A stretch of DNA of 52,660 bases from an uncultured Gammaproteobacteria bacterium (GCA_964473715.1 CAYYQC010000001.1:3953-56612), one strand, 5' to 3'; positions 31,824 through 50,468 are shown, counted from the stretch's first letter. Numbers and translations are program-made. Notes: generated by a model from the letters alone, not told the origin.

Positions 31824-31824
31824 A

Positions 31825-34225: not shown

Positions 34226-34280
34226 ATCATTTTAAAATCTGCCCCTATTGTACGGTATTTTTTAAATAAAAGCAACCTTC

Positions 34281-35330: not shown

Positions 35331-35331
35331 A

Positions 35332-36318: not shown

Positions 36319-37472
36319 ATATCGTGCAATAATTTTCTGGTCACTTTTACCATTACACCAAAATCAAATTTGGTAAAAAATTCTTTACCTGCCTCTGTAT
36401 CTTGTGCTACAGATATTTTTTTTCCACCAACAATCTCTCGCAATTTTAATTCAATTTCTTGTTCATTATTGTACTCAAATAAATCTCCAGTTTTGCCAGG
36501 AATAATAATCTCTGGATTTCCACCCACATTACTAGCCAGAACATTACACCCCGCGTACAATGACTCTACCAACACATGAGACAACCCTTCGTATGCACTA
36601 TTTAAAATAAATATTTCCGAGTTATGCATGTATGTATGCACTTCAGAATTAGGAATAAAACCTAAAAATTCTACCTTGCTACTCATACCCAAAGTCTTGG
36701 CAAAACCTTCATAATTACTACGCTCAGGTCCATCACCAAAAATTTTCAATTTTACCTTAGGAAAATCAACACTAATTTTTCTAAGTACACTAATCAACGC
36801 TTTAATTCCTTTCCACGGCACCAAACGCGGGCCAGTTAAAATCCAAAATTCATTTGAGTCTTTAAAACCCACGACTTTTGATTCGCCTATCATTCCCTGC
36901 CCAATTTTTTCCAGATCAATGGCATTATAAATAACTTTTACTTTGTCAGCCAAAACATCCCACCCAATCACAATTTTTTTCAAATATTCGCTTGGGACAA
37001 TTACCATATCCGCGGAACGAGCCACAAATTTCTGCACAATTTGCAAACGCCGCACTGCGCCATGATATTTTTTAGTTTGAAATTCATCAATTAATTCAGT
37101 CACTCCAAATCTCTGAAATCCTTGTTCCCAAGCATAATCCCCCACTACTTTGACCACAAATTTTTTACCGAGCAAACGTGCAGCAAACAAAGCAGGCAAA
37201 CCAGCATTTACTGGCCCCATGGCAAAAACCAAATCAGCTTTGCGCGCATGACGTAACAATAAACCAAAGTATTCAAAATATCTGAGTAATTTATTTTTTT
37301 GCGTGACTGCCACTACAGTTGCGCCAGTAACATCTTTCCTCGAATCAGGAGTTAGTGAAACTACAGTTGCTTCATCCCCCATTTCCACCAGCGCGTTACT
37401 AAATCCAGCCGCGTAAATCGCTGGCCCCCCACCCACTGGTGGAAAAATATCTGCGGCAAAAAGAATCTTCAT
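36306..37472 (-). CDS. GT4-family glycosyltransferase
   Basis: YEGLSHVLVESLYAGCNVL motif. The start was moved to ATG 37472 (MKILFAADIFPP...), which forms an ATGA overlap with the upstream stop. Confidence 0.83.
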   Translation of the reverse strand: MKILFAADIFPPVGGGPAIYAAGFSNALVEMGDEATVVSLTPDSRKDVTGATVVAVTQKNKLLRYFEYFGLLLRHARKADLVFAMGPVNAGLPALFAARLLGKKFVVKVVGDYAWEQGFQRFGVTELIDEFQTKKYHGAVRRLQIVQKFVARSADMVIVPSEYLKKIVIGWDVLADKVKVIYNAIDLEKIGQGMIGESKVVGFKDSNEFWILTGPRLVPWKGIKALISVLRKISVDFPKVKLKIFGDGPERSNYEGFAKTLGMSSKVEFLGFIPNSEVHTYMHNSEIFILNSAYEGLSHVLVESLYAGCNVLASNVGGNPEIIIPGKTGDLFEYNNEQEIELKLREIVGGKKISVAQDTEAGKEFFTKFDFGVMVKVTRKLLHDICVR

Positions 37473-38584
37473 ACTTTTTTTTGAAAAAGTTCCCCCATGC
37501 GTACACTCACTTTTTTCCAATTAAATTCGGCCAAAACTAAATCATGTGCATTTTGAATCACTGCTTTTTTAAGTGCTTCATCTGCTTGCACACGTTTCAC
37601 AGCTTCAGCAATTGATTCAGGATTATGTGGCTCGCACAAATATCCTGTTTTTCCTTCATGCAAAAAATCAGGAATTCCACCCACTGGTGTACCAATTACC
37701 GGCACATTCACAGCCATAGCTTCTAAAAAAGCATTTCCTAAACCTTCAGATAAACTTGGTCTGCAAAAAATATCTGCTTCACGCAAATATTCTGGTAATT
37801 CTTTATAATCCACAGTTCCCAAAAAATGCACTTGTTTAGATTTACCAATATTGTCAGCCAAATTTTTAAGTTCAGTTTCCAAAGGCCCGCTTCCAGCTAA
37901 AACCAACTGAGTATTGGCAGGTAAAAATTTCAAAGCTGAAATTAAATCAGCAATCCCATTTTTCGGTACTAACCGCGACACAGACATAATCATCACATCT
38001 TCAGCGCGCAATCCCAATTGCGTTCGCAACCAGCCATGTGTTTTAGTAAACGTGTAATCAAAGAAAAATTCTGGTACACCATTTGGAATCACGGAAATAT
38101 TTTTTCCCCCCAACTGTTTGGCCCAATCAGCTAAGTAATTACTAATAGTTTGAATCGCGTTAGCGCGCGTAAAAATTTGTTTAAACCAGGGCCAGCACCA
38201 CCATACCCGCGCGTATATATGCGCAAAAGAATCTCCTTCTTGCAAAGTCAAGAGATATGGCACGGCAGGATTTTTCTTTTTAAAAAATAAAGCCGCAAAC
38301 CCAGCATAACTAGCCATAATAGACCAAATTGCTTTTGGTTTATAAGTAGCGGCCACTTTTGGGCCACTAAAAATCAGGCGAATTTTATCCCACGCATTTC
38401 CTATCCCAATCCGATGAATCAGGACATTTCCTTGCTCCTCAATTTCTGGAAGATCTGCGCGCAAGCGAGCAGTAATGACAATAAAATTAGTTTCAGGGAG
38501 ACGACTAGTAATTTCCCGCACTGCGACTTCAGCTCCACCAACCAAGGGAAAATAGGCAGTGGAAAAAATCAGAATCGGCTCCAT
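37469..38584 (-). CDS. GT4-family glycosyltransferase
   Basis: SEGLGNAFLEAMAVNVPVI motif; 371 aa. Confidence 0.84.
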   Translation of the reverse strand: MEPILIFSTAYFPLVGGAEVAVREITSRLPETNFIVITARLRADLPEIEEQGNVLIHRIGIGNAWDKIRLIFSGPKVAATYKPKAIWSIMASYAGFAALFFKKKNPAVPYLLTLQEGDSFAHIYARVWWCWPWFKQIFTRANAIQTISNYLADWAKQLGGKNISVIPNGVPEFFFDYTFTKTHGWLRTQLGLRAEDVMIMSVSRLVPKNGIADLISALKFLPANTQLVLAGSGPLETELKNLADNIGKSKQVHFLGTVDYKELPEYLREADIFCRPSLSEGLGNAFLEAMAVNVPVIGTPVGGIPDFLHEGKTGYLCEPHNPESIAEAVKRVQADEALKKAVIQNAHDLVLAEFNWKKVSVRMGELFQKKV

Positions 38585-38645
38585 AGTGGTCTATTTTTTG
38601 CTTATTCTTGAAGTTTTTTGATATTTCTAGTATGCTCTTTCCTAT

Positions 38646-39788
38646 ATGAAAAGTCAACCGTCCCACCCCGACATTTTATACATTATTACCCAAGGAAATT
38701 GGGGTGGTGCGCAGCGCTATGTTCATGATTTAGCCCAAGAAATGGCCGCCAATTTTCAGGTAATGGTGGGAGCTGGTAAAACCCAGGGCACCCAAGAACT
38801 TCTAAACAAAGTTGAGACAGCCGGACTCCACACTTACCATTTCCGCCATTTAGTACGCCACATCTCACCTTGGCATGACATAGCCGCGATTTGGGAATTA
38901 AAAACTGCCTTCCAAACTCTAAAACCTCGCCTCGTCCACTTAAACAGCTCTAAGGCGGGAATTATTGGTACTTTGGCAGCCTTACTCATTTCTGCCAAAG
39001 AACGTCCCACCATCGTGTACACGGCTCATGGCTGGGTTTTCAATGAACCTCTACCCTGGATTACTAAGCAAATATATTTTTATTTAGAAAAATGGACTGC
39101 GCAGGGCAAAGATGCAATCATTGTTACTTCACCAGAAGAAGCACTTGTGGCCACTGAACAATTAAAAATCCCCTCTCACAAAGTTTCTTATATTCCTCTG
39201 GGCTTAGATGCGCCACAATTTTTTAATCCTGAGCAAGCTCGCGCACAGGTTCTAAAAAAAGTTCAGGCAAATTCTGAATCAATTTCTGAAAGCGTGCCGT
39301 GGCATGCAACCATTGCTAATAGTTACCGCACCAAAGGTTTAGATATTTTACTATCTGCAATTAGCCAAAGTAAAAACCCGGCTGAATATTTTATCATTGG
39401 TCACGGCCCAGAACAAACCAAATTAATTAACCAAGCTAAAAAATACAATTTAAAACAAGTACATTTTCTAGGCGCTATTCCCAATGCCGCAGAATTACTC
39501 CAAGCCTTTGATGGATTTATTTTACCTTCACGCAAAGAAGGCTTACCTTATGCCCTACTTGAAGCACTTTCTGCAGGTATTCCAATCATTGCCACGCGAG
39601 TAGGCGGCATCCCTAGCTTAGCAAAAAAATATTCTAACATCACCATAATTGACCCAGAAAATTCCCATGAATTAACCGCAGCCTTACAAAATTTTTCACA
39701 CAATCAAACCAAAGCCCAACACATTTCTTCAGCACAAGACATGGCCACAGAAACTACTTCTCTATACAAAAAAATCTCTCTTAAATAA
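38646..39788 (+). CDS. GT4-family glycosyltransferase
   Basis: KEGLPYALLEALSAGIPII motif. It is transcribed divergently from the 17-gene minus-strand operon. Confidence 0.84.
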   Translation: MKSQPSHPDILYIITQGNWGGAQRYVHDLAQEMAANFQVMVGAGKTQGTQELLNKVETAGLHTYHFRHLVRHISPWHDIAAIWELKTAFQTLKPRLVHLNSSKAGIIGTLAALLISAKERPTIVYTAHGWVFNEPLPWITKQIYFYLEKWTAQGKDAIIVTSPEEALVATEQLKIPSHKVSYIPLGLDAPQFFNPEQARAQVLKKVQANSESISESVPWHATIANSYRTKGLDILLSAISQSKNPAEYFIIGHGPEQTKLINQAKKYNLKQVHFLGAIPNAAELLQAFDGFILPSRKEGLPYALLEALSAGIPIIATRVGGIPSLAKKYSNITIIDPENSHELTAALQNFSHNQTKAQHISSAQDMATETTSLYKKISLK

Positions 39789-39801
39789 TTTTAAATAAAA
39801 A

Positions 39802-39832
39802 AACAGTCCGTTATAAGCGGGCTGTTTTTTAT
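39802..39832. terminator. bidirectional terminator between convergent genes
   Basis: AACAGTCCG / CGGGCTGTT stem (one G-U pair), loop TTATAAG, with an A-run on the left and a T-run on the right. Confidence 0.7.
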
Positions 39833-39842: not shown

Positions 39843-41909
39843 TTACTGTTTTGTACTGCTCGTAATGGCCGGTAAACCAGCTGCTTCACGTAACCGCGCA
39901 GAGCTTGGGTCATTAAATATCAAACCTGCTCTTTCGCCGCGTAAAAATACTTCTTTAGCACCAGCAACATCCCCTTCTTCCAAATATACACCAGCTAAAC
40001 GCCACCAACCATCTGGAGTTTTTGGACTATGCGCCAAAGTGGTTTCCAAAGCTTCTTTGGCACCTTTATAATCCCGCTCATATAAACGAGATATTGAAAG
40101 CACGTAATATAATTGTTGGCGTTTTGGAGACTTAGTAATCGCATCTTCCATCAGCGCTTTACTTTCTTCAATATAGGCCGGGTTACCAGTTATTTGCGCA
40201 CCTACCAAAGCCAACTGTGCTTCCTGAATATGATAGCGCACATCTAGTGGATGTAATTCACGATTCTTTTTAATTTCTTCGTAAGCAAACGTAAATAATT
40301 TCAAAGTATTTTCCCGGCCATAAATAGAAACCATACCCTGTACCTGACCTTCTGTCATGCGAGCAAAATCCATTCGGTTATCATCAATATGAGGAGTACC
40401 CATTTTATCCATGTCTTTATACTGTGTAATTAGCGAATCAATTAATTTAGCGTCACGATACTGAGTAATCGTGGATAATGATTGCAAAATTTTCCAGGTC
40501 GCACTATTTGCTTTGGCAGGCTTAGTATCAGTGGCATAAATAATTAATAGCATGCACACCATAATTACTGGCATGGCCCAGCCTGGCAAATTTTTAGCAC
40601 GACTTACTTCACCTTTTTCTAGCACCATGGCTGGTGCCGCAATCATAGCCAGCACAAAGTAGAAGTATAGATAAGAAGTAAGATTTTCAAACACAAAAAT
40701 ATTTTGCACCAAGTGCCCAACCAAGAATGACAGAAAGAAAATCATCGTGGACTGTGGTATTTTTCCTGCACGCCAATTTTTCACTGCCAAAGTTGCGGCT
40801 GCACCAAATATTCCAATATAGATAAGCAAACCAAAGGCTCCCTGCACAGTCAAAGTATTGAGCAAAATATTATGCGCATTATCAAACCAAGTTTCAGCCC
40901 AACCACCAATTTCCAAAAATTCTGGACGGTAATTTTGGTTGAATACATAGGCATAATTATTTGGCCCCCAACCAAAGAATGGTTTTTGCTTCCAGCCTTC
41001 AATCGCAATTTCCCAAGCCATCAAACGTGTACTTACAGTTCCACCACTAATACTTACAGTAGCCAACCGACCAATCACTGGAATACTATCCACAAAAGCC
41101 GTATGTCTAAAAGAAAACAAAACTGCAATCAGCACTATGCCACCAAGCATTACTCCGCCCAATGTTTTGCGGATTGGTAGCGAAACTTTTTTACTAAAAG
41201 TAACCAAAAGCAAAGCCATGCCAACAGCTGCCAATAAACCCAAGAAAGGTCCACGACTATCACTTAAGAAAATTCCCACCACACCAAACAAAGCGGCAAT
41301 ACCTCCAAACCATTGTTGCCATTTTTCTTTTGGAGTGGAAGAAAAAACTAGCCAAGCCCCCAGTGCGGCCATAAAAAATCCAAGCGCACCCAAATAAATT
41401 GGATTACCTAGGGTTCCGCCAACACGTACACTACCGTGATTATACAAAAAATCTGTATTAAACTTTTGTATGACACCAATCAGCATGATAAATATCCCAG
41501 TACCAGCAAACCACATGGAAAGGTTCCGCCACTCTTCACGCGTTTTAATTACCGCACTCAAGATAATAAAGAATAAGATGTAGTGCGCAAAAGTAAATAA
41601 ACCAAGCATGCGTTCATGTCCGTCCCACATACTGCGGTATGGATCTGCACCAACATAAGTAGAAATCACCCAAGAAACAAAAAATAAACCAATGGCTCCA
41701 CTTACCCAGTTCAAGCGTGGTTTATATTTTTGCCAATCCATGGCCAATAATCCAGCATAACACCCAGTCATGAGCAAAACCGTAGTTCTAAACCAAATGG
41801 CTTTTGGAAATACAAAAGGGAAAATTTGTGACTCTGGTCTAATAATCAAAGCTGAAAAAAAAGCCACTACAGTTAGCCAAAATATACTCTTTTCTAAAAA
41901 CCGATTCAT
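39843..41909 (-). CDS. Wzy_C (O-antigen ligase/polymerase-like) membrane protein with a C-terminal TPR domain
   Basis: 688 aa, polytopic. Wzy_C signature SDSRGPFLGLL...FDNAHNILLNTLTVQGAFGL. The C-terminal 200 or so residues have TPR-like repeats (YKGAKEALETTLAHSPKTPDGWWRLAGVYLEEGDVAGAKE). Confidence 0.8.
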   Translation of the reverse strand: MNRFLEKSIFWLTVVAFFSALIIRPESQIFPFVFPKAIWFRTTVLLMTGCYAGLLAMDWQKYKPRLNWVSGAIGLFFVSWVISTYVGADPYRSMWDGHERMLGLFTFAHYILFFIILSAVIKTREEWRNLSMWFAGTGIFIMLIGVIQKFNTDFLYNHGSVRVGGTLGNPIYLGALGFFMAALGAWLVFSSTPKEKWQQWFGGIAALFGVVGIFLSDSRGPFLGLLAAVGMALLLVTFSKKVSLPIRKTLGGVMLGGIVLIAVLFSFRHTAFVDSIPVIGRLATVSISGGTVSTRLMAWEIAIEGWKQKPFFGWGPNNYAYVFNQNYRPEFLEIGGWAETWFDNAHNILLNTLTVQGAFGLLIYIGIFGAAATLAVKNWRAGKIPQSTMIFFLSFLVGHLVQNIFVFENLTSYLYFYFVLAMIAAPAMVLEKGEVSRAKNLPGWAMPVIMVCMLLIIYATDTKPAKANSATWKILQSLSTITQYRDAKLIDSLITQYKDMDKMGTPHIDDNRMDFARMTEGQVQGMVSIYGRENTLKLFTFAYEEIKKNRELHPLDVRYHIQEAQLALVGAQITGNPAYIEESKALMEDAITKSPKRQQLYYVLSISRLYERDYKGAKEALETTLAHSPKTPDGWWRLAGVYLEEGDVAGAKEVFLRGERAGLIFNDPSSARLREAAGLPAITSSTKQ

Positions 41910-41964
41910 AAAATATTCACATTAATTACAGGCCCAGTATAGCCTATTCAATTAGGCTTGTAAA

Positions 41965-41997
41965 CAAAAACCCTCCCGATAAATCGGGAGGGTTTTG
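41965..41997 (-). terminator. intrinsic terminator of the large surface-protein gene
   Basis: The minus strand reads AAAACCCTCCCGATTTATCGGGAGGGTTTTTG: a 10-bp GC-rich stem plus a T-run. Confidence 0.78.
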
Positions 41998-42007
41998 TCT
42001 AACAAAG

Positions 42008-42039
42008 CTCAGTTAACCCGAAGGTTAAATCAAGCTGAG
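42008..42039 (-). other. second stem-loop immediately 3' of the surface-protein stop codon
   Basis: TTAACC (42013-42018) / GGTTAA (42023-42028) with a 4-nt loop, extended by a CTCAG/CTGAG outer helix. Confidence 0.4.
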
Positions 42040-42040
42040 A

Positions 42041-45000
42041 TTAGAGAGAGCGAGACAAGGTAGAACCTACAACATCATAAGAGTCTGATGCAGTAAATGG
42101 ACCAAGTTCACTTGTTGAGTTAACTGGAGTGTAGTAGTAAGCTAATACGCCAGTTGCCCAAGCAGAGTCAGTAAGGTTGTATCCAGTAGCACCATCAAGC
42201 ATTGGACTTACAGTCACAACACCTGTTGTTTTACCATTGAGTACACCTGTAGTGTCAGCAGTCACGATAAAGGTACGTGAACCACCGGCTGGGATTGTGA
42301 AGTTGTTCAATGCTGAACCGTTCTGGCCCATGGTACCAAGGGTAACAGAGATAGAACTTGTTGAAGCAGAGAAGTAACAACCTGCGGTGTTTTGGTTACC
42401 AACAACCAATGAACATGAGCTTGAAGTGGTCAAAAGTTGACCCTTGCTGCCCTGTGCATTAGATTCCCACAACTTGAATGTGTTGAGGGTACCACTTACG
42501 GTGTTGTTACCAGTCATACCACTGGCTGAGATCTTCACAGTTGTACTACCAAGGCGCAATTCGCGATCGCCAGGGTTGTAAACAGTATACTTGAAGATTG
42601 GGGCTTCAGAACCCAATTCCAAACTTGAACCAAGGCTCACAGGAGTGATCACTGGTGCAGTGTTGTGGAAAAGGTGAGCAGTTGAAGAAGCAATTGTGCC
42701 TCCAACTTGGCCGTCGCCAGCCAAACCATCAAGTTGAGAACCACTCAAAGTACCACCTGAACTGGAAACCAATTCAAGGTTAGTACTTGAAGTACTGCGG
42801 AGAGCCAAGTAACTGATATTGCCTGGAGTCATTACGTTTGACGCATTAACAGCAGACTTAACTACCAAGAACTTGTAAGTATTAGCAGGAACAGTGAGGC
42901 TAAGACCAGTAAACTGAACATAACCATTACCTGTACCACCAATATATTGACCAGTTCCAACAGAAGTGTTCATGTCAGCTGAGTCATAGAGGAAGAAAGT
43001 ACCATAATCACTACTTGTAGTGTTTGTAGAACCATCTTTACCAAAATGTACTGAGAAGGTGATCTTTTTCAAGGTCACAGCTTCGTTCTGAGCTTCCAAT
43101 TTCCACTTACCAACTTGAACTGGAGTTGCACTTGGAACCAAAATACTATTGGTTGTAGTGTTGTCATTAGCAGCACTGAGGATTACGTTAGCAGATCCTA
43201 CAGTGAAGTCTTGACCAACAACAGCAGAGTTGTCAGAGTCTGTATTCTGAGTATCAGCACCTACAAATGTGTAAGAAGCGATACTTGAAGACGCAACACC
43301 TGAAGCGTTAGAAAGAATCAAAGCTTTAAGTTTAATAACTTTAACTTCGTTCTTTTTAACAGTGATATTACTCAAGAAACTGTTTGATGAAGTAGCGGCA
43401 GTAGATACGGTTGAACCGTATTGTTCGTTACCAACCCACAATTCCAAGTTCTGGAGCATTGAAGGTGTATCGAATGTGCCGTTGCCAAGGAAACTAACAC
43501 TGAAGTTAGTAAGCTTAACATCTTCAGCAGAGCCAGCCTTAATGGTATATTGACCGATCACTTGGCTTGAGCCAGCAGCGAGGGTGTTGTTACCAAGAGT
43601 ACTGTCTTTAGCCAAAGTTACTTCAGTTGATTCAACAGCAACAGTGTTAGCAGCAGTCAAAGTGCTACCAGGGATGTTGTCTGTGAAGTCAAGAGTAGAC
43701 AAACGTTTTGCATACATGTTACCAACACTTACAGTGAAGGCTGAAACAGAGGTAGCAGATGTAGGAATACTACCGAGTACTTCCAATACTTTTGTTTCAC
43801 CAGACTTGAGGTTCAAGTATTGTGACAATGTGTATTGAGTTGAAGTACTGTTATACAAAGTGTAAGTACTGTCTGAAGCACTAGTAGTCAAAAGGATGTC
43901 GTTACCAACACGCAATTTAACTGAACCAGTCAATTCTTTTTTACCTACAGCGTATGTAGTAGTAGCAATCTTCAAACCGATCTTGCGAACTTCAAGATCT
44001 TCACCAACAGCTTTTACGTTAAAGCGGGCCAAGACAATATCATTGCCACCAGCTGAAACAGATGTTGAAGGAGAATCTGTAGTCTTAGATACAGTTACGG
44101 TACCGGACTTCATTTTGAAGTAACCAGCAGAAGATGAAACAGCTGAGAATGAAGTGGTTGAACCTTCACTAGTAGCACCAATGAAGTAACCTGTACTTGT
44201 ATCCTTAACCATTACATCGTAGTCATTCTGAACTTGAATACGGAACCAGTTGCCTGAACCATCGGCCACAGTGGCACGGAGGGTCAAAACACGGTTTGTA
44301 CTCTTAGGAACAGTGTATGGCTTGTCAAAGTTAACAGTTACGTAGCGATCAGACATCATTTCTGTGCGACCGAGAACTGTGTTATCTGGAGCGAGAACTT
44401 CAAAATTCTTGAGGTCTTCGTCCTTAGCAGTTCCTTGTACGTAGAAAGTAATTTTACTTACTTGGATATCACTATCACCATCGTATTGGATGAACTTGAA
44501 TTTGGAGATTTCTTGTGTCTGACCAATTTCAAGGTTACCAGCAGTACTACTGCCTGGTTCTGTACTCAAACCACCAGCTGAAACACTTCCGAGTTGTACA
44601 TCAGCGACAGAGCCGCCAGATACCAAACTCATGGTGTTACCAGAAACTGGGAATGAACCACTTACAGTACCGTCAGTTTGCACATCAGCCGCAGAAGCGA
44701 TTGAAGCACCAACTGTGCCTGAAGTAGCAGTTGTAGCTAAGTTAAAGGCTACAGTGAAAGAAGTTGTTTGGCCTTTAGCAACTACGATTGGGTAGGTACC
44801 AAAACCAATAGTAACTTTGTTGTCTGAGCTAAATGAGCTCATAACATCACCGTGGCGGTTGCCAGCTGAATCCCAAACACTTACGCCACTAATGTTAGCA
44901 TTAGTTACGAGACCAGTGCGGGTTACAGTTACACCTTTCAATTTAACATCACCGTTAGTAGCAGTAACAGTCACTTTAAGCATGTTGTTGTAAACAGTGC

Positions 45001-45808
45001 CTGCAGCGATTGTAGATGCAGCTGCTGTATCAGCAGCCAAACCAACAGTCAAAACACCGTTAGATGTAGGAGTTGTTGGAACACTACCACCACTCAATTG
45101 TGATGGGTTGTTTACGATAGTAGCAGCAGTAACTGATCCAGAACTCAAAGATACTGAGGAGAATACAGTTGCTGAAACAGTGCGTACATCGTTAACAGCC
45201 TGTGTTGGGAGAGCTCCGTCTACCATTTTGAGAGCATTGTCCCAAACGTAGTAAACAGTAGATTCACCAGCCTTCTTTACCAATTGACCATTGTGGAGGG
45301 TGTTGCCTACGAGAGGAGCACCAACCTGGTAGTTGGAATCAAAGACATCGTTAAGATGAGTAACGAGAGTTGGCCAGTTGGCTCCGTAAAGAGCAACAGC
45401 TTGTGCTTCGTTGTCAATCTTGTGCTTCATGTTGTTTGGACCTACAGCGTAAACTGAAGGAGAGAGGAAACTCTTTACCAAACGTGAACCTGGACGGAAG
45501 TTAACACCACCACCAGCGGCGTAAGCGTCAACACAAGACATGTCAATGGTAGTAATACCACTGAAATCCTTGTACCAGGATTTATATACGGCTTCTGTTG
45601 GGAAGTACATCCGTTTATTCTGACTGTTTACCAAGTAAACAGCAGCATTTCCGGCTACTTTGAACAAGTCTCCGGCTTCGAGCTCTGGACATGTAGCGGC
45701 AGCAGCACCGGCTGGAACAAAGGCTGAAAGGCCAACGCTCCAAGCAACAGTCATGCTAACCACTGACATGGTGAAGAGTTTCTTACCGAATTTCTTCAAA
45801 TTTTGCAT
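42041..45808 (-). CDS. large secreted Ser/Thr/Gly/Val-rich repeat protein, candidate S-layer or cell-surface protein
   Basis: 1255 aa. Signal peptide MQNLKKFGKKLFTMSVVSMTVAWSVGLSAFVPAGAAAA. Long series of beta-strand-like modules of the type G..V.L..F.[VI].A...D[VI].[VL]..[IL].F, and only four Cys. Codon choice differs from the neighbouring genes (many GGT/ACC/GTT/AAC), consistent with high expression. Confidence 0.8.
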   Translation of the reverse strand: MQNLKKFGKKLFTMSVVSMTVAWSVGLSAFVPAGAAAATCPELEAGDLFKVAGNAAVYLVNSQNKRMYFPTEAVYKSWYKDFSGITTIDMSCVDAYAAGGGVNFRPGSRLVKSFLSPSVYAVGPNNMKHKIDNEAQAVALYGANWPTLVTHLNDVFDSNYQVGAPLVGNTLHNGQLVKKAGESTVYYVWDNALKMVDGALPTQAVNDVRTVSATVFSSVSLSSGSVTAATIVNNPSQLSGGSVPTTPTSNGVLTVGLAADTAAASTIAAGTVYNNMLKVTVTATNGDVKLKGVTVTRTGLVTNANISGVSVWDSAGNRHGDVMSSFSSDNKVTIGFGTYPIVVAKGQTTSFTVAFNLATTATSGTVGASIASAADVQTDGTVSGSFPVSGNTMSLVSGGSVADVQLGSVSAGGLSTEPGSSTAGNLEIGQTQEISKFKFIQYDGDSDIQVSKITFYVQGTAKDEDLKNFEVLAPDNTVLGRTEMMSDRYVTVNFDKPYTVPKSTNRVLTLRATVADGSGNWFRIQVQNDYDVMVKDTSTGYFIGATSEGSTTSFSAVSSSAGYFKMKSGTVTVSKTTDSPSTSVSAGGNDIVLARFNVKAVGEDLEVRKIGLKIATTTYAVGKKELTGSVKLRVGNDILLTTSASDSTYTLYNSTSTQYTLSQYLNLKSGETKVLEVLGSIPTSATSVSAFTVSVGNMYAKRLSTLDFTDNIPGSTLTAANTVAVESTEVTLAKDSTLGNNTLAAGSSQVIGQYTIKAGSAEDVKLTNFSVSFLGNGTFDTPSMLQNLELWVGNEQYGSTVSTAATSSNSFLSNITVKKNEVKVIKLKALILSNASGVASSSIASYTFVGADTQNTDSDNSAVVGQDFTVGSANVILSAANDNTTTNSILVPSATPVQVGKWKLEAQNEAVTLKKITFSVHFGKDGSTNTTSSDYGTFFLYDSADMNTSVGTGQYIGGTGNGYVQFTGLSLTVPANTYKFLVVKSAVNASNVMTPGNISYLALRSTSSTNLELVSSSGGTLSGSQLDGLAGDGQVGGTIASSTAHLFHNTAPVITPVSLGSSLELGSEAPIFKYTVYNPGDRELRLGSTTVKISASGMTGNNTVSGTLNTFKLWESNAQGSKGQLLTTSSSCSLVVGNQNTAGCYFSASTSSISVTLGTMGQNGSALNNFTIPAGGSRTFIVTADTTGVLNGKTTGVVTVSPMLDGATGYNLTDSAWATGVLAYYYTPVNSTSELGPFTASDSYDVVGSTLSRSL

Positions 45809-46072: not shown

Positions 46073-47290
46073 TTACTTTTTCACGTCAACTTGAACCTGA
46101 TCAGTCTGCGCTTTGGTTTTTGTATCTACCAATGACTGTTGCGCAGAAGCTGCGTTTTGATTTAAATCTTTTAGATTTTTCAAAGCCTCTTCTAAATTAT
46201 TAGAATCAATATTTTTCTTAATCTCTACTGCAGAATTATTTACCACCAATGTTTTCGCATCAGCTTCTTTAATTAAGTCACTCGCAGTAGTTGTGGATGT
46301 AGATGACAAAGCTTTTTCCAAACTATCAGTTTTTTGATTAGTAGTTGGCAAAATTGTACTACGGGTAGTTGAAACAGAAAGATCAATAAGTTTAGTAGTA
46401 CTAGAAGAAAGCATTTGCATAGGCACCCCCAAAGTATTTTTTACATCATTTTTAATTGCTTCAGTAGATTGAACCAAGTCAACAACTTTTTCTGAAACAA
46501 TATTTTTGACATCATTTGGCTCGCCAGTTCGTACGACTGTTTCTACCGCTGAGATGCTTGTTTCATTAACTAATTTAATAGTTTCAATCACTTGCTTAGT
46601 TACTTCTACATTAGCCAGAGTAGAAGAAGCCACCGTTGAGTTTAATTCTTTAACCAAAACTGTTGTGTCTTTGGCCACACCTTTGGCAGTTTCTACAACT
46701 TCAACCGCATTTTCTTTTGTAGCAGAATCTTTAGCTTGAACATTTACATTTACAGAAACTTCTTTAACTGCATCTTGCACATCTTTTACAGCCACGCTCA
46801 AATCTTTTTCTGCTTTAGCCCGGTCATCAGGATCTGATTCTACTGCTAATTTTTGTGAGACAGTTTTTTTAATATCATCTACCCGGCTCTTGGCCAAGTT
46901 TAATTGTAATTGTACTTTTTCATTTTCCGTGGCACCAATACTTTTTACAGCCACTTCAGTTTTTTGAGCTACACGTTTAATGGCCCACAAACGGTCACCA
47001 GGCAGACTATTAAAGGAGGCACTCACACTAGCAATCCAACCACCAGTAGCCAACAAAGCCACAGTAAGAGCAGTTAAGGTAGGACGCAATAAACGAATAG
47101 TAGAGCTAGAACGTAAGTGATACCAAAGTGCGCGCGCAGTGTCCACCACCACAGGTTTTGCCACTGGCACAACAGTATTACTAATTTGTTGCACCATCCG
47201 AGCACGCTCTGAAACAACCCAAGCCTGGTCAGGATTAACCTGACTTTGAGAAAGCTTGATTGTTTTCAGTTGTTCCTTAAGGTGCTTCAT
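46073..47290 (-). CDS. membrane-anchored DUF5667-type protein, candidate anti-sigma factor
   Basis: 405 aa. Cytoplasmic N-terminus, one TM (LTALTVALLATGGWIASV), then SLPGDRLWAIKRVAQKTEVAV (the DUF5667-like P-G-D-x-L-x-x-x-K-R pattern) and a long low-complexity V/K/T/E-rich tail. It overlaps the upstream ECF sigma gene by 14 nt. Confidence 0.62.
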   Translation of the reverse strand: MKHLKEQLKTIKLSQSQVNPDQAWVVSERARMVQQISNTVVPVAKPVVVDTARALWYHLRSSSTIRLLRPTLTALTVALLATGGWIASVSASFNSLPGDRLWAIKRVAQKTEVAVKSIGATENEKVQLQLNLAKSRVDDIKKTVSQKLAVESDPDDRAKAEKDLSVAVKDVQDAVKEVSVNVNVQAKDSATKENAVEVVETAKGVAKDTTVLVKELNSTVASSTLANVEVTKQVIETIKLVNETSISAVETVVRTGEPNDVKNIVSEKVVDLVQSTEAIKNDVKNTLGVPMQMLSSSTTKLIDLSVSTTRSTILPTTNQKTDSLEKALSSTSTTTASDLIKEADAKTLVVNNSAVEIKKNIDSNNLEEALKNLKDLNQNAASAQQSLVDTKTKAQTDQVQVDVKK

Positions 47291-47846
47291 AATTACGCAT
47301 TGCTTTTTTTAAAATGTTGGTGGCTCTGTGTAATGTGACCCGAACATTTACTGGAGATTTTTTTATTATTTGTGCAATTTCTTTTATAGAAAGTTCTTCA
47401 ATATATCGTAGCAAGATAACTTCTTGATATTCTTGCTTCATTTGTCGTACTTGTTTTAGGAGCACTTTGGCACTTTCTGTAACCATGAGATTGGCCACCA
47501 TATTATCAACACCCGCAATCTCTTCCACATCTGGCGCAGCTTCTAGAGAAAACTCTGGTCGGTTGGCTTTGGCCCTGTACCAGTCTACCAAACTATTTCT
47601 AGCGATTTGATAAATGAGACCACTGAAACTTTTTATTTCTACATCTGTTTTTTCAGCCAAATACTGCCAGGTTTTCAGAAACACCTCACTGGTCAAGTCT
47701 TCAGACTCTTCTTTCCGATTTACCTTAAAAAATATGAACCGATAAATCCGACCCACGTACAAATCGTACAGACAAGCAAAAGCTTCAGGGTCGTGATTTT
47801 TAGTCACTTGGTAAACCAGTTTTTTTTCAGAGAGGCTGGTGGGCAT
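47277..47846 (-). CDS. ECF-type sigma-70 family RNA polymerase sigma factor
   Basis: Region 2 (IYRFIFFKVNRKEESEDLTSEVFLKTWQY) and region 4 HTH (ELSIKEIAQIIKKSPVNVRVTLHRATNILKK). Start ATG 47846 is preferred; the track start at 47891 would add 15 non-conserved residues. Confidence 0.86.
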   Translation of the reverse strand: MPTSLSEKKLVYQVTKNHDPEAFACLYDLYVGRIYRFIFFKVNRKEESEDLTSEVFLKTWQYLAEKTDVEIKSFSGLIYQIARNSLVDWYRAKANRPEFSLEAAPDVEEIAGVDNMVANLMVTESAKVLLKQVRQMKQEYQEVILLRYIEELSIKEIAQIIKKSPVNVRVTLHRATNILKKAMRNYEAP

Positions 47847-47853
47847 ACTAGAA

Positions 47854-47879
47854 GACGTCCTGAATAAAAAAGTGTTACA
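47854..47879 (-). promoter_or_regulatory. candidate ECF-type autoregulatory promoter TGTAAC-N16-CGTC
   Basis: The minus strand has TGTAAC (plus-strand 47874-47879), a 16-nt spacer, then CGTC (plus-strand 47854-47857), ending 7 nt before ATG 47846. This resembles the AAC-N16/17-CGT architecture of ECF promoters. Confidence 0.25.
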
Positions 47880-48118
47880 CCTGTGGAACACTTTTACATA
47901 TTTATGTTACCAACACTATACCTTATCTAAGCCAAAAAAACAACCTTCACGGCTCATAATCAAGTTATTTAGTGGTTTCAAGAAAAAGGATATAGTTACT
48001 CCATATGCGACCAGGTCCCATTTTTAGGACTTTGACAATAGTAATGAAGAGCCCAGATATGTATACACTAATATATACATTATAAATAAACCAATTTTCA
48101 GACTTTATTCCTTGCCCA

Positions 48119-48147
48119 TTGACAAAACCCTAAAAATTTGTTAATAT
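48119..48147 (+). promoter_or_regulatory. sigma70 promoter TTGACA-N17-TAATAT for the HTH gene
   Basis: TTGACA at 48119-48124, a 17-nt spacer, then TAATAT at 48142-48147. Confidence 0.55.
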
Positions 48148-48224
48148 ATGTCTATACAAAAATCAAAAAATTAATAACCGCCGCGTCTCAAAGGACGTTA
48201 CGCGGCACGATTTCGACAAATCGT

Positions 48225-48572
48225 ATGGAACAAAACCTCCAAAAAGAAATACAATCTATTGACCCAGCCAACTCTACACCAGCCAAAGAAGTAATTAGAG
48301 TATCAATCTCTGAAGCCGCTCGGCTCTTTGGGGTAAATCCTCAAACTATTCGCCGCGCTCTCAAAGACCAAGAAATCAATTATGTGGTCGTAGCTGGACG
48401 TTATAAGCTCAACTTTGAAAGTCTAGTTAAGTGGTCACAGCGCAAAACCACGGTTCGGAACAAATCCAACCAAAGTGGTATTGGACAATATGTGGATAAA
48501 TGGAAAATTAATAACACTTTATACTCCCCTAGCTCCAAACTTCTAAAGCCAGAGGAACCACCGCAAACATAA
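48225..48572 (+). CDS. helix-turn-helix (excisionase/MerR-like HTH_17) DNA-binding protein
   Basis: VSISEAARLFGVNPQTIRRALKDQEINYVVVAGRYKLNFESLVKW is a typical HTH_17 segment. The start was moved to ATG 48225, downstream of the promoter. A 7-bp hairpin ACGATTT-CGAC-AAATCGT abuts the start codon. Confidence 0.68.
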   Translation: MEQNLQKEIQSIDPANSTPAKEVIRVSISEAARLFGVNPQTIRRALKDQEINYVVVAGRYKLNFESLVKWSQRKTTVRNKSNQSGIGQYVDKWKINNTLYSPSSKLLKPEEPPQT

Positions 48573-48578
48573 ATTTAA

Positions 48579-48613
48579 AACTCTCCCCGACCAAATCGGG
48601 GAGAGTTTTTTGT
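48579..48613 (+). terminator. intrinsic terminator after the HTH gene
   Basis: ACTCTCCCCGA-CCAA-ATCGGGGAGAGT followed by TTTTTTG. Confidence 0.78.
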
Positions 48614-48638
48614 TAGCCTATGCTATACTTAAAAGGCT

Positions 48639-50468
48639 ATGAAATTTGTCTCTACACATCTTACTAAACATCATTTGTTACACGCTCCTCATCGCTGGTT
48701 TTTGGCTTTTTTGCTCTCACCTATTCACGCTCTAGAAGTACATTATCAACGCCGCTACCATCTTAAATTTTCTCATGCCCGCAAATTATTTATCTTTGAC
48801 ATGCTTCTTTTGATAAGCATTTTTGTCATTGGAGGAAGTGCAGCTTTTTGGTATACCTATGACCCTACTGTAACCAAAGACGTAGCCCTTGAAGTTTCTG
48901 CGGCCGCACTTGGGGACACCAATCGAGTAAAAAGTGGTGAACTCATTACTGTAAAAATCTCTTTTCAGAACAATAGTAATGTAGTACTAGAAGACCCAAT
49001 TATTAAAGTAAATATTCCCGCTGGTTTTCTTATTCGCAGCACTCCACCTAATTTTACCACTTCCACCCAATCAATTTCAGTTGAAAGCATGAAGCCACGT
49101 CAAGGCGGAGAGCTAATCTTTACAGGTCAATTTTTTGGTGAACCAGGCAAAAATTTTCCGGCCGTAGTAGAGCTTATTTATCGCCAAGAAAAAACCAATC
49201 GGTTTGAAGTTAAAACCGTGGGCATATTAGCTACCCCTGCGGATTCAGTTCTGGTAGTGAATGCTAATTTTCCTGCTACTATTTTTTCTTCAGGAAATTG
49301 GGAAGTGCCGGTCACTATTCAAAATACTGGCTCTGAATTAATCTCAGGAATTTCTATTCCTTTCCCGACTGTAAATGGTTTAAATTTTTCTTGGCTTGAA
49401 ACTGGGATTACCAAAAAACCTTTATTGATTTCTTTACTCAAACCAAATGAAACTACTACTGGTACCTTACGTTTTTCCAGTAAATTACCAAAAGATATTT
49501 CTGAAATTTCTGTTTCCTTAATTCCTCAAATTCAAATTAATAATCAGTATTTTAACCAAGCCGCATTTAATTCTAAAATTTCCGTACTCCACCCTGGTTT
49601 AAAAATTTCTTCTGAATGGAAACAATCAATTGTTCAGCCTGGCGAGAGTGTGCCATTACATATTAAAGTAGAAAATACTGGTAGTGTAGAACTTAATAAT
49701 CTTACCCTAGCCATTCCTTTACCAGCGAACTTAGTTAATGTACGTGAAACTGCCACAACCAATAAAGCCACACTTAAAGGATCAACCCTATATATTTCTG
49801 CCAAAGAATTTCCGGCTTTAAATTCTATTCCGCGTCAAGAAACTCGCGAACTACCATTAACTATTATAATTTCTAACCGTCCTAGCGGTAGTACTGAACT
49901 TAGTTTACCAATTAGTGCTTCAAGTAATATTGTTAATAATCCAGAAAAGTTTGAAACAAAATCTATTACTTCACCAATTAAACTAGGTACTTTTATTAGT
50001 TTAAATGCTGAGTCCCACTATTATTCTACTGAAGGTGACCAAATTGGTCGTGGACCATTGCCTCCAAAAGTTGGCAAAGAAACCAAATATTGGGCTTTAT
50101 TAATTCTGAACAATGGCACTGCTGAAGCTTCTAATGTGTCTGTTTCTGCTACTTTAGCCCCTGGAGTTACCTGGACTAGTAAATCTAGTGTGACACGTGG
50201 ACGCGAACCTGTTTACAATCCATCAACACGTACAATTACTTGGAATGTTTCATCTGTCCCTGCCAGTGAAACAGTTGGTATTGACTTTGAATTAAGTATT
50301 ACTCCTACTGAATCACAGCGGGGTTCCATCCCTGTTTTGCTTACAAATATTCGTGCTTCGGCTGTGGATAGTATTACTAATAAAAATCTCACTGCTTCAG
50401 CAGGATCTTTAAATGCTTCACTTGTTACAGACACAATTGGCAAAGCCAAAGGCGTGCGCGTGGAATAA
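48639..50468 (+). CDS. membrane-anchored protein with four CARDB/DUF11-like beta-sandwich repeats
   Basis: 609 aa. TM helix LLLISIFVIGGSAAFWY, then repeats with the pattern x-V-x-I-x-N-x-G-x-x-x-L-x-N-[VL]: ITVKISFQNNSNVVLEDPIIKVNIPAGF, VPVTIQNTGSELISGISIPFP, VPLHIKVENTGSVELNNLTLAIPLPANL and ALLILNNGTAEASNVSVSATLAPGV. Confidence 0.7.
   Translation: MKFVSTHLTKHHLLHAPHRWFLAFLLSPIHALEVHYQRRYHLKFSHARKLFIFDMLLLISIFVIGGSAAFWYTYDPTVTKDVALEVSAAALGDTNRVKSGELITVKISFQNNSNVVLEDPIIKVNIPAGFLIRSTPPNFTTSTQSISVESMKPRQGGELIFTGQFFGEPGKNFPAVVELIYRQEKTNRFEVKTVGILATPADSVLVVNANFPATIFSSGNWEVPVTIQNTGSELISGISIPFPTVNGLNFSWLETGITKKPLLISLLKPNETTTGTLRFSSKLPKDISEISVSLIPQIQINNQYFNQAAFNSKISVLHPGLKISSEWKQSIVQPGESVPLHIKVENTGSVELNNLTLAIPLPANLVNVRETATTNKATLKGSTLYISAKEFPALNSIPRQETRELPLTIIISNRPSGSTELSLPISASSNIVNNPEKFETKSITSPIKLGTFISLNAESHYYSTEGDQIGRGPLPPKVGKETKYWALLILNNGTAEASNVSVSATLAPGVTWTSKSSVTRGREPVYNPSTRTITWNVSSVPASETVGIDFELSITPTESQRGSIPVLLTNIRASAVDSITNKNLTASAGSLNASLVTDTIGKAKGVRVE

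What the first reader, a model, noticed from the sequence alone, without database searches (positions are those of the whole stretch)
39843..45808. Wzy_C-TPR membrane protein directly adjacent to the Ser/Thr-rich surface protein: candidate O-oligosaccharyltransferase and substrate pair
The 688-aa protein carries the Wzy_C signature (SDSRGP..., AHNILLNTLTVQGAFGL) fused to an extracytoplasmic TPR domain. Wzy_C is shared by O-antigen ligases (WaaL), some polymerases, and protein O-oligosaccharyltransferases (PglL, PilO, WsaB of the Geobacillus S-layer system).

No lipid A-core acceptor pathway is visible in this window. The gene's immediate upstream neighbour on the same strand (it begins about 130 nt past the surface-protein terminator) is a protein extremely rich in Ser/Thr. 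A TPR module could plausibly recognise a protein substrate.
Basis: inference. Interest (0 to 1): 0.7.

Follow-up and report, generated by a model that had tools for sequence, protein, structure and literature searches.

The report
Surface-protein glycan transferase candidate in CPR bacteria
In an uncultured ultra-small bacterium (Candidatus Magasanikbacteria), a membrane enzyme of the O-antigen-ligase family lies next to the gene for a large secreted surface protein and beside a big sugar-synthesis cluster. This layout recurs in most related genomes and resembles known S-layer glycosylation loci of Gram-positive bacteria, but no activity has been shown.

Summary
39843-41909(-) encodes a 688-aa protein with a Pfam Wzy_C domain, a 12-TM WaaL-like core, a 13th TM helix and an extracytoplasmic TPR-like domain. 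42041-45808(-) encodes a 1255-aa Sec-secreted protein (24.7% Ser+Thr against about 11% for its neighbours) made of an N-terminal alpha/beta domain, a disordered S/T/P-rich linker and about eight Ig-like domains.

The organism is a monoderm Patescibacterium, so an LPS ligase role is out. In 45-47 of 60 related genomes with enough upstream sequence, a homologous roughly 1250-aa protein lies just upstream on the same strand, while the downstream glycan genes vary. The WaaL/PglL Arg-Arg-His triad is conserved, and the C-terminal domain carries its own invariant polar signature. Relatives often insert a stand-alone TPR protein or a second Wzy_C paralog between the two genes, echoing WsaA/WsaB and WsfB of Firmicute S-layer glycosylation loci.

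Best reading (about 0.5): a WsfB-like O-oligosaccharyltransferase for the adjacent surface protein. Rivals are a ligase to a wall or lipid acceptor (about 0.22) and a Wzy polymerase (about 0.15; it is the only Wzy-like gene beside a Wzx flippase). It is a new member of a known kind, of moderate interest and biochemically untested.

The parts
39843..41909 (-). Wzy_C-TPR gene (688 aa): WaaL-like 12-TM core, a 13th TM helix and an extracytoplasmic TPR-like domain
   Evidence: ORF; Pfam Wzy_C E 3.2e-20 and TPR_19 E 8e-7; AF2 pLDDT 85.9; Foldseek best hit WaaL 7tpg; more than 400 full-length homologs in Patescibacteria
40815..41297 (-). Wzy_C catalytic region (residues 205-365) with R219, R295 and H346
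   Evidence: Invariant or nearly so in 22 and in 81 family members. They align to E. coli WaaL R215/R288/H338, which equal PglL R224/R298/H349 (PMC3643930)
39846..40589 (-). TM13 plus the C-terminal helical/TPR-like domain (residues 441-688), with family-specific invariant polar residues H507, D510, R512, D556, R558, R597, Q598
   Evidence: AF2 helices 445-676; invariance in 81 proteins and loss in 12 tandem paralogs; among the hits listed (the best 150) of a search of 1.84 billion representatives, the strong full-domain matches lie at the same position of same-length proteins or in apparent fragments
39798..39830 (.). Bidirectional terminator-like hairpin between the convergent GT4 gene (38646-39788, +) and the Wzy_C-TPR gene
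   Evidence: 15-bp stem flanked by A- and T-tracts
41936..41964 (-). Sigma-70-like promoter match (TTTACA-17-TATACT) 27 nt upstream of the Wzy_C-TPR ATG
   Evidence: Consensus scan, 10 of 12 positions. This is a pattern match only; the number of such matches in the region equals the shuffle expectation
41961..41996 (-). Intrinsic terminator of the surface-protein gene (13-bp GC-rich stem plus UUUUUGUUU), preceded by a second hairpin at 41998-42045
   Evidence: Fold dG -49.8 kcal/mol, z -6.4. Equivalent hairpins follow the homologous gene in 8 of 8 relatives checked
42041..45808 (-). Secreted surface protein (1255 aa): signal peptide, conserved N-terminal alpha/beta domain (about residues 40-235), disordered S/T/P-rich linker (about 236-250), about eight Ig-like beta-sandwich domains. 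Candidate glycosylation substrate
   Evidence: ORF; Ser+Thr 24.7%; no Pfam or NCBIfam hit; family of roughly 1250-aa hypothetical proteins whose named members come from Magasanikbacteria or related Patescibacteria; AF2 pLDDT 85.2; Foldseek finds only Ig-like arrays, including PrgB and the Sap S-layer; linker composition in 43 homologs
46073..47290 (-). 405-aa single-pass membrane protein, anti-sigma-factor-like, overlapping the ECF sigma gene
   Evidence: The KD scan at its default threshold flagged no TM segment; one hydrophobic stretch (about residues 68-92) is seen on reading the printed sequence; its homolog carries a weak DUF5667 hit; syntenic in 37 loci
47277..47891 (-). ECF-type sigma-70 factor heading the conserved block
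   Evidence: Pfam Sigma70_r2 and r4_2; syntenic in 40 loci
48138..50468 (+). Divergent pair: HTH protein (144 aa) and a DUF11-repeat membrane-anchored surface protein (609 aa, 20% Ser+Thr), conserved with the block
   Evidence: Pfam HTH_17 and DUF11; syntenic in 36 and 30 loci
15000..39788 (.). Glycan-assembly cluster that could supply the lipid-linked donor. Contents: phosphoglycosyl transferase (15000-16442, +), Wzx flippase (20001-21284, +), about 9 GT4 and 1 GT2 genes, sugar-nucleotide enzymes, methyltransferases, a deacetylase, and a PMT_2 GT-C enzyme (30147-31823, -)
   Evidence: Pfam scans; TM scan

Best explanation
The 688-aa protein is proposed to be a protein O-oligosaccharyltransferase of the Wzy_C (WaaL/PglL/WsaB) superfamily.

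Proposed pathway:
1. A glycan is built on undecaprenyl phosphate by the neighbouring cluster. The phosphoglycosyl transferase at 15000 starts it, and the GT4/GT2 enzymes extend it.
2. The Wzx flippase at 20001 flips it to the outer face of the membrane.
3. The WaaL-like core of the enzyme binds the Und-PP-glycan through R219 and R295. H346 activates an acceptor hydroxyl, so the glycan is transferred en bloc.
4. The acceptor is proposed to be Ser, Thr or Tyr of the adjacent 1255-aa secreted surface (S-layer-like) protein as it leaves the Sec channel. The most likely site is its disordered S/T/P-rich linker or exposed loops.
5. The extracytoplasmic TPR-like domain, tethered by a 13th TM helix, acts as the acceptor-recognition module.

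What is shown: the domain architecture, the fold, conservation of the catalytic triad, the organism and the conserved synteny. What is inferred: the donor, the acceptor, the direction of transfer and the role of the TPR domain.
For: 1. Superfamily membership: Pfam Wzy_C; AF2 plus Foldseek to WaaL 7tpg; R219/R295/H346 align with E. coli WaaL R215/R288/H338, which equal PglL R224/R298/H349 (PMC3643930).

2. No LPS acceptor: the lineage is Patescibacteria, described as monoderm (PMC11665869). No lipid A or core genes are in the window.

3. Conserved neighbourhood: in 45 of 60 loci with at least 5 kb upstream (47 counting L006 and L010), a 1120-1320-aa S/T-rich ORF lies within 4.6 kb upstream on the same strand. 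The genes downstream vary.

4. Ortholog-like conservation: 37-53% identity over the full length, with many invariant extracytoplasmic residues. This fits an enzyme with a constant acceptor and is unlike Wzy polymerases, which are serotype-specific.

5. The C-terminal domain has invariant polar residues in 81 main-family proteins. Tandem second copies keep the catalytic residues but lose that signature, which suggests a specificity module.

6. Published precedent: WsfB and PglL carry a C-terminal TPR motif. WsaB lacks one but is preceded by the TPR protein WsaA. S-layer genes are monocistronic and, in Geobacillus, lie next to the slg cluster; wsfB is monocistronic (PMC2943079). In this family, about 20 relatives have a stand-alone TPR protein of about 230 aa between the two genes. 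The surface gene ends in a strong terminator, and the enzyme gene is bracketed by terminators.

7. O-OTase genes are often adjacent to their substrates (PMC3643930; PMC12645811).

8. The candidate substrate is Sec-secreted and has a disordered S/T/P-rich linker in nearly all 43 homologs aligned; a few are acidic or poorer in S/T/P.
Against: - No biochemical or glycoproteomic evidence exists for this family.
- The PglL_A and Wzy_C_2 markers are absent even at E<=10. They are also absent from TfpO and TfpM O-OTases, so this is weak evidence against.
- It is the only Wzy-like membrane protein in a window that holds a Wzx flippase. A Wzx pathway would normally need a polymerase.
- A terminator separates the two genes, and in one derived clade they are about 320 kb apart.
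- The invariant C-terminal residues (His, Asp, Arg, Gln) look at least as much like a sugar- or phosphate-binding site as like a peptide groove. This is an inference.
- A PMT_2 GT-C enzyme plus a GT2 in the cluster could glycosylate Ser/Thr by another route.
Confidence: 0.5

Rival explanations
1. The protein is a glycan ligase to a non-protein acceptor. It would transfer the Und-PP-linked glycan to peptidoglycan or to a membrane glycolipid, making a secondary wall polymer. That polymer could be what the conserved N-terminal domain of the surface protein binds, which would also explain the conserved neighbourhood. The role is WaaL-like, but in a monoderm.
For: - Same fold and catalytic triad as WaaL, whose acceptor is a lipid-linked sugar.
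- The invariant C-terminal residues are charged or polar (H507, D510, R512, D556, R558, R597, Q598). This suits an invariant sugar or phosphate ligand such as peptidoglycan.
- The most conserved part of the surface protein is its N-terminal domain of about 195 aa, which could be a wall-polymer anchor.
- When synteny breaks, the enzyme stays with the glycan genes and not with the surface protein.
- No LCP-family ligase is present in the window.
Against: - In known monoderms, wall-polymer ligation is done by LCP enzymes (established knowledge). No Wzy_C-type wall ligase precedent was found in the papers read.
- TPR fused to Wzy_C is documented for protein O-OTases.
- A dedicated substrate-like neighbour is conserved in most genomes.
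Confidence: 0.22
2. The protein is a Wzy polymerase. It would polymerise Wzx-flipped repeat units of a surface polysaccharide, with the TPR-like domain acting as a built-in scaffold or chain-length module. Adjacency to the surface-protein gene would then be incidental to its position at the edge of the glycan cluster.
For: - Pfam Wzy_C also covers polymerases.
- The window has a Wzx flippase and an initiating phosphoglycosyl transferase but no other Wzy-like multi-TM protein.
- The gene travels with the glycan genes in the derived clade.
Against: - The protein is 37-53% identical across a whole candidate phylum, while the adjacent glycan genes differ: a GT4 set in some loci and GMD in others, and the window's Wzx and PGT have no match within 10 kb in any of the 80 loci. 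Polymerases normally co-vary with the repeat unit.
- No Wzz/PCP chain-length regulator is in the window.
- The residue pattern and spacing match the WaaL/PglL triad.
- With about 11 glycosyltransferases, the cluster could build a long glycan without any polymerisation.
Confidence: 0.15
3. The surface protein is O-glycosylated, but by the PMT_2-type GT-C enzyme (30147-31823) using a polyprenyl-phosphate monosaccharide made by the neighbouring GT2 (32466-33191), as with actinobacterial Pmt. The Wzy_C-TPR protein would serve another glycan.
For: PMT_2 E 2.3e-13 with 12 TM segments, and a GT2 two genes upstream. Pmt enzymes are known to target S/T/P-rich linkers of Sec substrates (established knowledge).
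Against: The PMT_2 gene has no tblastn match in any of the 80 related loci, so it belongs to the variable part and is not linked to the surface protein. This reading also leaves the conserved Wzy_C-TPR adjacency unexplained.
Confidence: 0.08

Closest known systems
WsfB of Paenibacillus alvei and WsaA/WsaB of Geobacillus stearothermophilus (S-layer protein O-oligosaccharyltransferases; PMC2943079)
   Same: - Monoderm host.
- Wzy_C domain, with a C-terminal TPR (WsfB) or a separate small TPR protein just upstream (WsaA). Both forms occur in this family.
- Encoded beside a glycan cluster that has a WbaP/WsaP-type initiating transferase.
- The S-layer structural gene is monocistronic and, in Geobacillus, lies close by. 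wsfB is monocistronic.
   Different: - Sequence relationship to WsfB/WsaB was not tested, because no sequences were on hand.
- Export here looks Wzx-dependent rather than by a Wzm/Wzt ABC transporter.
- The C-terminal domain has its own invariant signature, seen at full length only in this family among the listed hits of the representative search.
- The host is a CPR bacterium, and the surface protein shows no SLH or other known S-layer domain.
PglL / PglS / TfpO / TfpM O-oligosaccharyltransferases of Proteobacteria
   Same: Wzy_C core and the conserved Arg-Arg-His triad. Many are encoded next to their substrate. PglL is reported to have a C-terminal TPR motif. A Wzx-type flippase supplies the donor.
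   Different: No PglL_A (PF15864) or Wzy_C_2 (PF11846) match. The neighbouring candidate substrate is a 1255-aa multi-Ig-like protein, not a pilin. The host is a monoderm.
WaaL O-antigen ligase (Cupriavidus metallidurans structure 7tpg; E. coli WaaL)
   Same: Best sequence and fold match in the PDB. It shares the 12-TM core with a large outer loop, and its R215/R288/H338 equivalents are conserved.
   Different: There is no lipid A-core acceptor, since the host is a monoderm. The gene is not in a waa cluster. It has an extra TM helix and a 230-aa extracytoplasmic domain.
TfpW of Pseudomonas aeruginosa (pilin arabinosyl/oligosaccharyl transferase)
   Same: A polytopic glycosyltransferase with a periplasmic C-terminal TPR domain, encoded immediately downstream of its protein substrate.
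   Different: TfpW is an ArnT/Emb-like GT-C enzyme and not a member of the Wzy_C family.

Membership tests
Wzy_C / O-antigen-ligase-like superfamily (PF04932) | Pfam Wzy_C match above the gathering score | tested here: met
   72.9 bits against 31.7, residues 205-365
Wzy_C / O-antigen-ligase-like superfamily (PF04932) | WaaL-like polytopic fold with a large extracytoplasmic loop before the last TM helices | tested here: met
   AF2 pLDDT 85.9, loop at 267-347; Foldseek 7tpg_B E 8e-7, TM-score 0.66 normalised to the target
Wzy_C / O-antigen-ligase-like superfamily (PF04932) | Conserved Arg, Arg, His (E. coli WaaL R215, R288, H338) | tested here: met
   R219, R295 and H346 align to them. R295 and H346 are invariant in 81 relatives, and R219 is Arg in 80 of 81
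WaaL (LPS O-antigen ligase) | A lipid A-core acceptor is present: a diderm host and a waa/lpx gene context | tested here: not met
   No Lpx, Kdo or Waa families in the window. The host is Patescibacteria, described as monoderm. The whole genome was not available
PglL / PglS-type O-OTase | PglL_A (PF15864) and Wzy_C_2 (PF11846) domains flanking Wzy_C | tested here: not met
   No match even at E<=10. These domains are also absent from TfpO and TfpM O-OTases
Protein O-OTase (any class) | En-bloc transfer of an Und-PP-linked glycan to Ser/Thr/Tyr of a protein | not testable with these tools
   Needs heterologous glycosylation assays or glycoproteomics
Protein O-OTase (any class) | Gene next to a secreted candidate substrate | tested here: met
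   131 nt from the 1255-aa secreted protein. This is conserved in 45-47 of 60 informative loci. The feature is suggestive and does not define the class
S-layer O-OTase WsaB/WsfB type | Wzy_C plus a C-terminal TPR, or a separate adjacent TPR protein | tested here: met
   TPR_19 at 610-657. Stand-alone TPR proteins in relatives: L004:9307-9996, L005:9303-9995. Published description in PMC2943079
S-layer O-OTase WsaB/WsfB type | Embedded in or next to an slg-type glycan cluster with a WsaP-like initiating transferase | tested here: met
   Bac_transf at 15000-16442, E 5e-58, plus many GTs
S-layer O-OTase WsaB/WsfB type | Glycan export by a Wzm/Wzt ABC transporter | tested here: not met
   No ABC2_membrane or Wzt in the window; a Polysacc_synt (Wzx) protein is present instead
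S-layer O-OTase WsaB/WsfB type | Sequence orthology to WsaB/WsfB, and a substrate that is a proven S-layer protein | not tested
   No WsaB or WsfB sequences were available. The surface protein has no known S-layer domain, and Foldseek finds only generic Ig-like arrays
Wzy O-antigen/capsule polymerase | Co-varies with the repeat-unit gene set; low conservation between clusters of different content | tested here: not met
   37-53% identity over the full length across the lineage while the neighbouring glycan genes differ
Wzy O-antigen/capsule polymerase | Partner chain-length regulator (Wzz/PCP) in the cluster | tested here: not met
   No Wzz or GNVR family hit among the window ORFs. Only the window was checked
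Wzy O-antigen/capsule polymerase | Sole Wzy-like membrane protein in a cluster with a Wzx flippase | tested here: met
   The TM scan finds only the PGT, Wzx, PMT_2, DUF2304 and this protein as multi-pass proteins. This keeps the polymerase rival alive

The most novel reading that the evidence does not exclude
Magasanikbacteria, and perhaps other Patescibacteria, carry a conserved and dedicated surface-layer glycoprotein module. It would consist of an ECF sigma/anti-sigma pair, a major multi-Ig-like envelope protein of about 1250 aa, and a Wzy_C enzyme whose family-specific extracytoplasmic domain recognises that protein. This would be the first identified S-layer-type protein and protein O-glycosylation system in the Candidate Phyla Radiation. 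A still more novel variant is that the enzyme is a non-LCP, Wzy_C-type ligase that fixes a wall glycopolymer in a monoderm.
Probability: 0.4. Interest if true: 0.65.

Novelty: new member of a known kind. Interest (0 to 1): 0.48.

Why it matters
CPR/Patescibacteria make up a large share of bacterial diversity and live attached to other cells, yet the molecular make-up of their envelope is almost unknown. A conserved locus that links a major secreted surface protein to a glycan transferase and a variable glycan cluster gives concrete candidates for the S-layer seen on these cells and for how it is decorated. The variable glycan may bear on host attachment or phage evasion. The enzyme family could also be a source of O-oligosaccharyltransferases with new acceptor specificity for glyco-engineering. 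The held literature contains no description of this family: only two papers mention both 'O-antigen ligase' and 'Patescibacteria', and the one listed concerns a different protein superfamily.

Tried and rejected
- NCBIfam gave nothing useful for either protein. Rfam found only two tRNAs in the window.
- hhalign of the family profile against single-sequence E. coli WaaL gave a poor overall score (E 0.23), although the three catalytic motifs aligned. I rely on the Pfam and Foldseek matches for homology.
- I tested whether the stand-alone TPR proteins of about 230 aa in relatives are detached copies of the enzyme's C-terminal domain. BLASTP shows no similarity, so this was rejected.
- A search of 1.84 billion representatives with the C-terminal domain alone looked for the domain in other architectures. 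In the 150 best hits listed, the strong full-domain matches were same-architecture proteins or apparent fragments (a few fetched); weaker partial hits to longer multi-repeat proteins look like generic TPR similarity.
- Foldseek of the surface-protein model gave only generic Ig-like arrays and no specific S-layer family.
- A WaaL role was rejected because the host is a monoderm and there is no LPS context.
- An IctB-like transporter annotation, which one source gives to a homolog, was not pursued: it is an old misnomer for Wzy_C proteins (my own knowledge).
- No complex of the two proteins was modelled: the structure tool, as used here, takes one protein or alignment per job and returned no coordinates.

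Full report
**What is in the sequence**

The two ORFs are exactly as described: 39843-41909(-) encodes 688 aa and 42041-45808(-) encodes 1255 aa, separated by 131 nt.

The 688-aa protein matches Pfam Wzy_C at residues 205-365 (E 3.2e-20, 72.9 bits against a cut-off of 31.7). It also matches TPR_19 at 610-657 (E 8e-7), with weaker TPR families around it. An AlphaFold2 model built on 22 homologs (pLDDT 85.9, pTM 0.85) shows these elements:
- twelve transmembrane helices;
- a large loop at 267-347;
- a short basic linker and a thirteenth helix (445-479);
- an all-helical domain at 488-676.

The best match among solved structures is the WaaL O-antigen ligase 7tpg, by sequence (E 3.8e-4) and by fold (E 8e-7, TM-score 0.66 normalised to the target). 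The remaining hits are TPR proteins. WaaL has both termini in the cytoplasm, so the extra helix should place the TPR-like domain outside the cell. This is an inference from homology.

The three residues known to be essential in E. coli WaaL are R215, R288 and H338, equivalent to PglL R224, R298 and H349 (PMC3643930). They align with R219 (SDSRG), R295 (STRLMAWE) and H346 (DNAHN) of this protein.

**The neighbouring protein**

The 1255-aa protein has a typical Sec signal peptide (by inspection) and no C-terminal anchor. Ser+Thr is 24.7%, against roughly 6-15% for most other window proteins; three neighbours (the anti-sigma-like 405-aa protein, HTH144 and the DUF11 protein) reach 17-20%. The Ser and Thr are spread evenly, so 'extremely rich' is an overstatement. 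It has no Pfam or NCBIfam match.

Its homologs are 'hypothetical proteins' of about 1250 aa; those that carry a name come from Magasanikbacteria or related Patescibacteria. A model of residues 40-1239 (pLDDT 85.2) shows three parts:
- an alpha/beta N-terminal domain of about 195 residues;
- a disordered linker (pLDDT 31);
- about eight beta-sandwich domains.

Foldseek returns only arrays of Ig-like domains, such as PrgB, integrins and the B. anthracis Sap S-layer at rank 41. The linker (GGSVPTTPTSNG in this protein) varies in sequence and length but is rich in Ser, Thr, Pro or Gly in most of the 43 homologs aligned; a few are acidic or poorer in these residues. The N-terminal domain is the most conserved part of the protein.

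**Organism and surroundings**

Homologs of both proteins come from Candidatus Magasanikbacteria and other Patescibacteria, which are described as monoderm bacteria (PMC11665869). None of the window ORFs scanned belongs to an LPS pathway. An LPS ligase role can therefore be set aside.

Downstream of the enzyme gene lies a glycan cluster of about 25 kb. It contains:
- an initiating phosphoglycosyl transferase (15000-16442);
- a Wzx-type flippase (20001-21284);
- about nine GT4 genes and one GT2 gene;
- sugar-nucleotide enzymes, methyltransferases and a deacetylase;
- a PMT_2 GT-C enzyme (30147-31823).

A hydropathy scan finds no other Wzy-like membrane protein in the window.

Upstream of the surface-protein gene are an anti-sigma-like single-pass protein and an ECF sigma factor. 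Divergently transcribed from these are an HTH protein and a DUF11-repeat surface protein.

**Transcription signals**

Two strong hairpins follow the surface-protein stop codon. The second is a classic intrinsic terminator (dG -49.8 kcal/mol for the region, z -6.4). A promoter-like match lies just before the enzyme's start codon, and a bidirectional terminator-like hairpin at 39798-39830 closes the gene. The enzyme gene therefore looks monocistronic.

A similar GC-rich hairpin, in most cases followed by a U-tract, sits after the homologous surface-protein gene in all eight relatives checked. This matches what is reported for S-layer structural genes and for wsfB (PMC2943079).

**Comparative evidence**

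A scan of GTDB species representatives returned 80 loci that encode full-length relatives at 36-42% identity. The block [DUF11 protein, HTH] | [ECF sigma, anti-sigma, surface protein, Wzy_C-TPR] recurs widely.

Sixty loci have at least 5 kb upstream of the enzyme gene. In 45 of them (47 counting two borderline cases) an S/T-rich ORF of 1120-1320 aa lies within 4.6 kb upstream on the same strand. The intervening space takes three forms:
- In about 22 loci the two genes are directly adjacent.
- In about 20 loci a stand-alone TPR protein of about 230 aa lies between them.
- In about 12 loci a second, divergent Wzy_C(+TPR) paralog lies between them.

The genes after the enzyme vary. Some loci have a GT4 set and others have GDP-mannose dehydratase. 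The window's Wzx and initiating transferase have no match within 10 kb in any of the 80 loci.

Most of the loci without the upstream surface protein (nine of the fifteen, plus four loci too short to score) form one derived clade in a neighbour-joining tree. In one such genome the sigma/anti-sigma/surface-protein block is intact but is followed by BipA. The enzyme lies about 320 kb away, next to glycan genes and downstream of unrelated genes.

**Conservation pattern**

In 81 main-family proteins R162, N169, R295, E339, D343 and H346 are invariant, and R219 is Arg in 80 of 81. Polar residues of the C-terminal domain are equally conserved: H507, D510, D556, R558, R597 and Q598 are invariant, and R512 is Arg in 80 of 81.

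The twelve tandem second copies keep the catalytic residues but not the C-terminal signature. A search of 1.84 billion representative proteins with the C-terminal domain alone gave 563 hits at E<=0.001. Among the 150 best listed, the strong full-domain matches lie at the same position of same-length proteins or in apparent fragments. The C-terminal domain therefore behaves as a family-specific specificity module with a constant ligand.

**Interpretation**

The best-supported reading is an O-oligosaccharyltransferase for the neighbouring surface protein. It would work like WsfB of Paenibacillus alvei (Wzy_C with a C-terminal TPR) or the WsaA(TPR)/WsaB pair of Geobacillus stearothermophilus, whose S-layer gene also lies beside the glycosylation cluster (PMC2943079). 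Encoding an O-OTase next to its substrate is a documented pattern.

Several points count against this reading:
- The PglL-specific Pfam domains are absent, although they are also absent from TfpO and TfpM.
- The protein is the only Wzy-like gene beside a Wzx flippase.
- The two genes are separated by a terminator and can be unlinked.
- The invariant C-terminal residues could equally bind a sugar or a phosphate.

I therefore give about 0.5 to the O-OTase reading and 0.22 to a ligase acting on a wall or lipid acceptor (perhaps building the polymer that anchors the surface protein). I give 0.15 to a Wzy polymerase and 0.08 to the alternative that the PMT_2 enzyme is the real protein glycosyltransferase.

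**Novelty and score**

The architecture and the genomic logic are already known from Firmicute S-layer glycosylation and from proteobacterial O-OTases. This is a new member of a known kind, in a lineage where nothing of the sort has been described in the held literature.

The added value is threefold: the conserved module across Magasanikbacteria, a concrete candidate for the major envelope protein of these cells, and a recognisable specificity domain. Interest is moderate (0.48). The claim is testable with standard glyco-engineering assays.

Noticed in passing
window 50746-52660 (+), runs off the window end: An open reading frame of at least 638 aa encodes a Cys-rich protein with seven Dictyostelium-type CTDC repeats (PF00526, E 4e-17). 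The region has 48% G+C, against about 39% for the rest of the window. This is an unusual repeat family for a CPR bacterium.
   Followed up: partly
L004:9307-9996, L005:9303-9995 and about 20 other loci (between the surface-protein and Wzy_C-TPR genes): Stand-alone TPR proteins of about 230 aa are inserted between the two genes in many relatives but not in this window. They are not sequence-similar to the enzyme's own C-terminal domain. They recall WsaA, which lies upstream of WsaB.
   Followed up: partly
L005:7075-9273, L014:7114-9348, L023:6371-8650, L024:6948-9311, L025:7205-9238, L026:7717-9942, L035:6649-8883, L064:7798-9972, L077:7769-9982 and others: A tandem second Wzy_C(+TPR) paralog (about 680-790 aa) keeps the catalytic Arg/Arg/His but has lost the invariant C-terminal signature. 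This may be a second transferase with another acceptor or glycan.
   Followed up: partly
L050:8295-9898, L029:8398-9707, L075:8196-9020: The gap between the surface-protein and enzyme genes also holds AbiEii/AbiEi toxin-antitoxin genes or a Bro-N protein in some genomes. This spot seems to tolerate insertions of mobile or defence genes.
   Followed up: no
window 46073-50468 and the matching parts of L001-L079, L082: A conserved block lies upstream of the surface-protein gene: an ECF sigma factor, an anti-sigma-like single-pass protein (weak DUF5667 hit in a homolog) and, divergently transcribed, an HTH protein plus a DUF11-repeat surface protein. This suggests envelope-stress control of the surface-protein locus.
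   Followed up: partly
window 30147-33191 (-): A PMT_2-type GT-C enzyme (12 TM segments), a methyltransferase and a GT2 sit in the middle of the glycan cluster. This could be a polyprenyl-phosphate-sugar route that decorates a glycan or a protein outside the membrane. The PMT_2 gene has no match in any of the 80 related loci.
   Followed up: partly
window 9701-13001 (-): A second small glycosylation module sits between the PBP2 gene and an S8 subtilase gene (12922-14997). It consists of a GT4, the small membrane protein DUF2304, a GT2 and an epimerase.
   Followed up: no
record titles of L001, L004, L005, L011, L013, L022 and many others: Many MAG records that carry this clearly patescibacterial locus are titled 'uncultured Gammaproteobacteria bacterium'. 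These are probably mislabelled public records.
   Followed up: no
window 45770-45808 (-): The public protein cluster for the surface protein is 1242 aa (P0121). It apparently starts at the second Met (residue 14) rather than at the 1255-aa start listed here, so the true start codon is uncertain.
   Followed up: no
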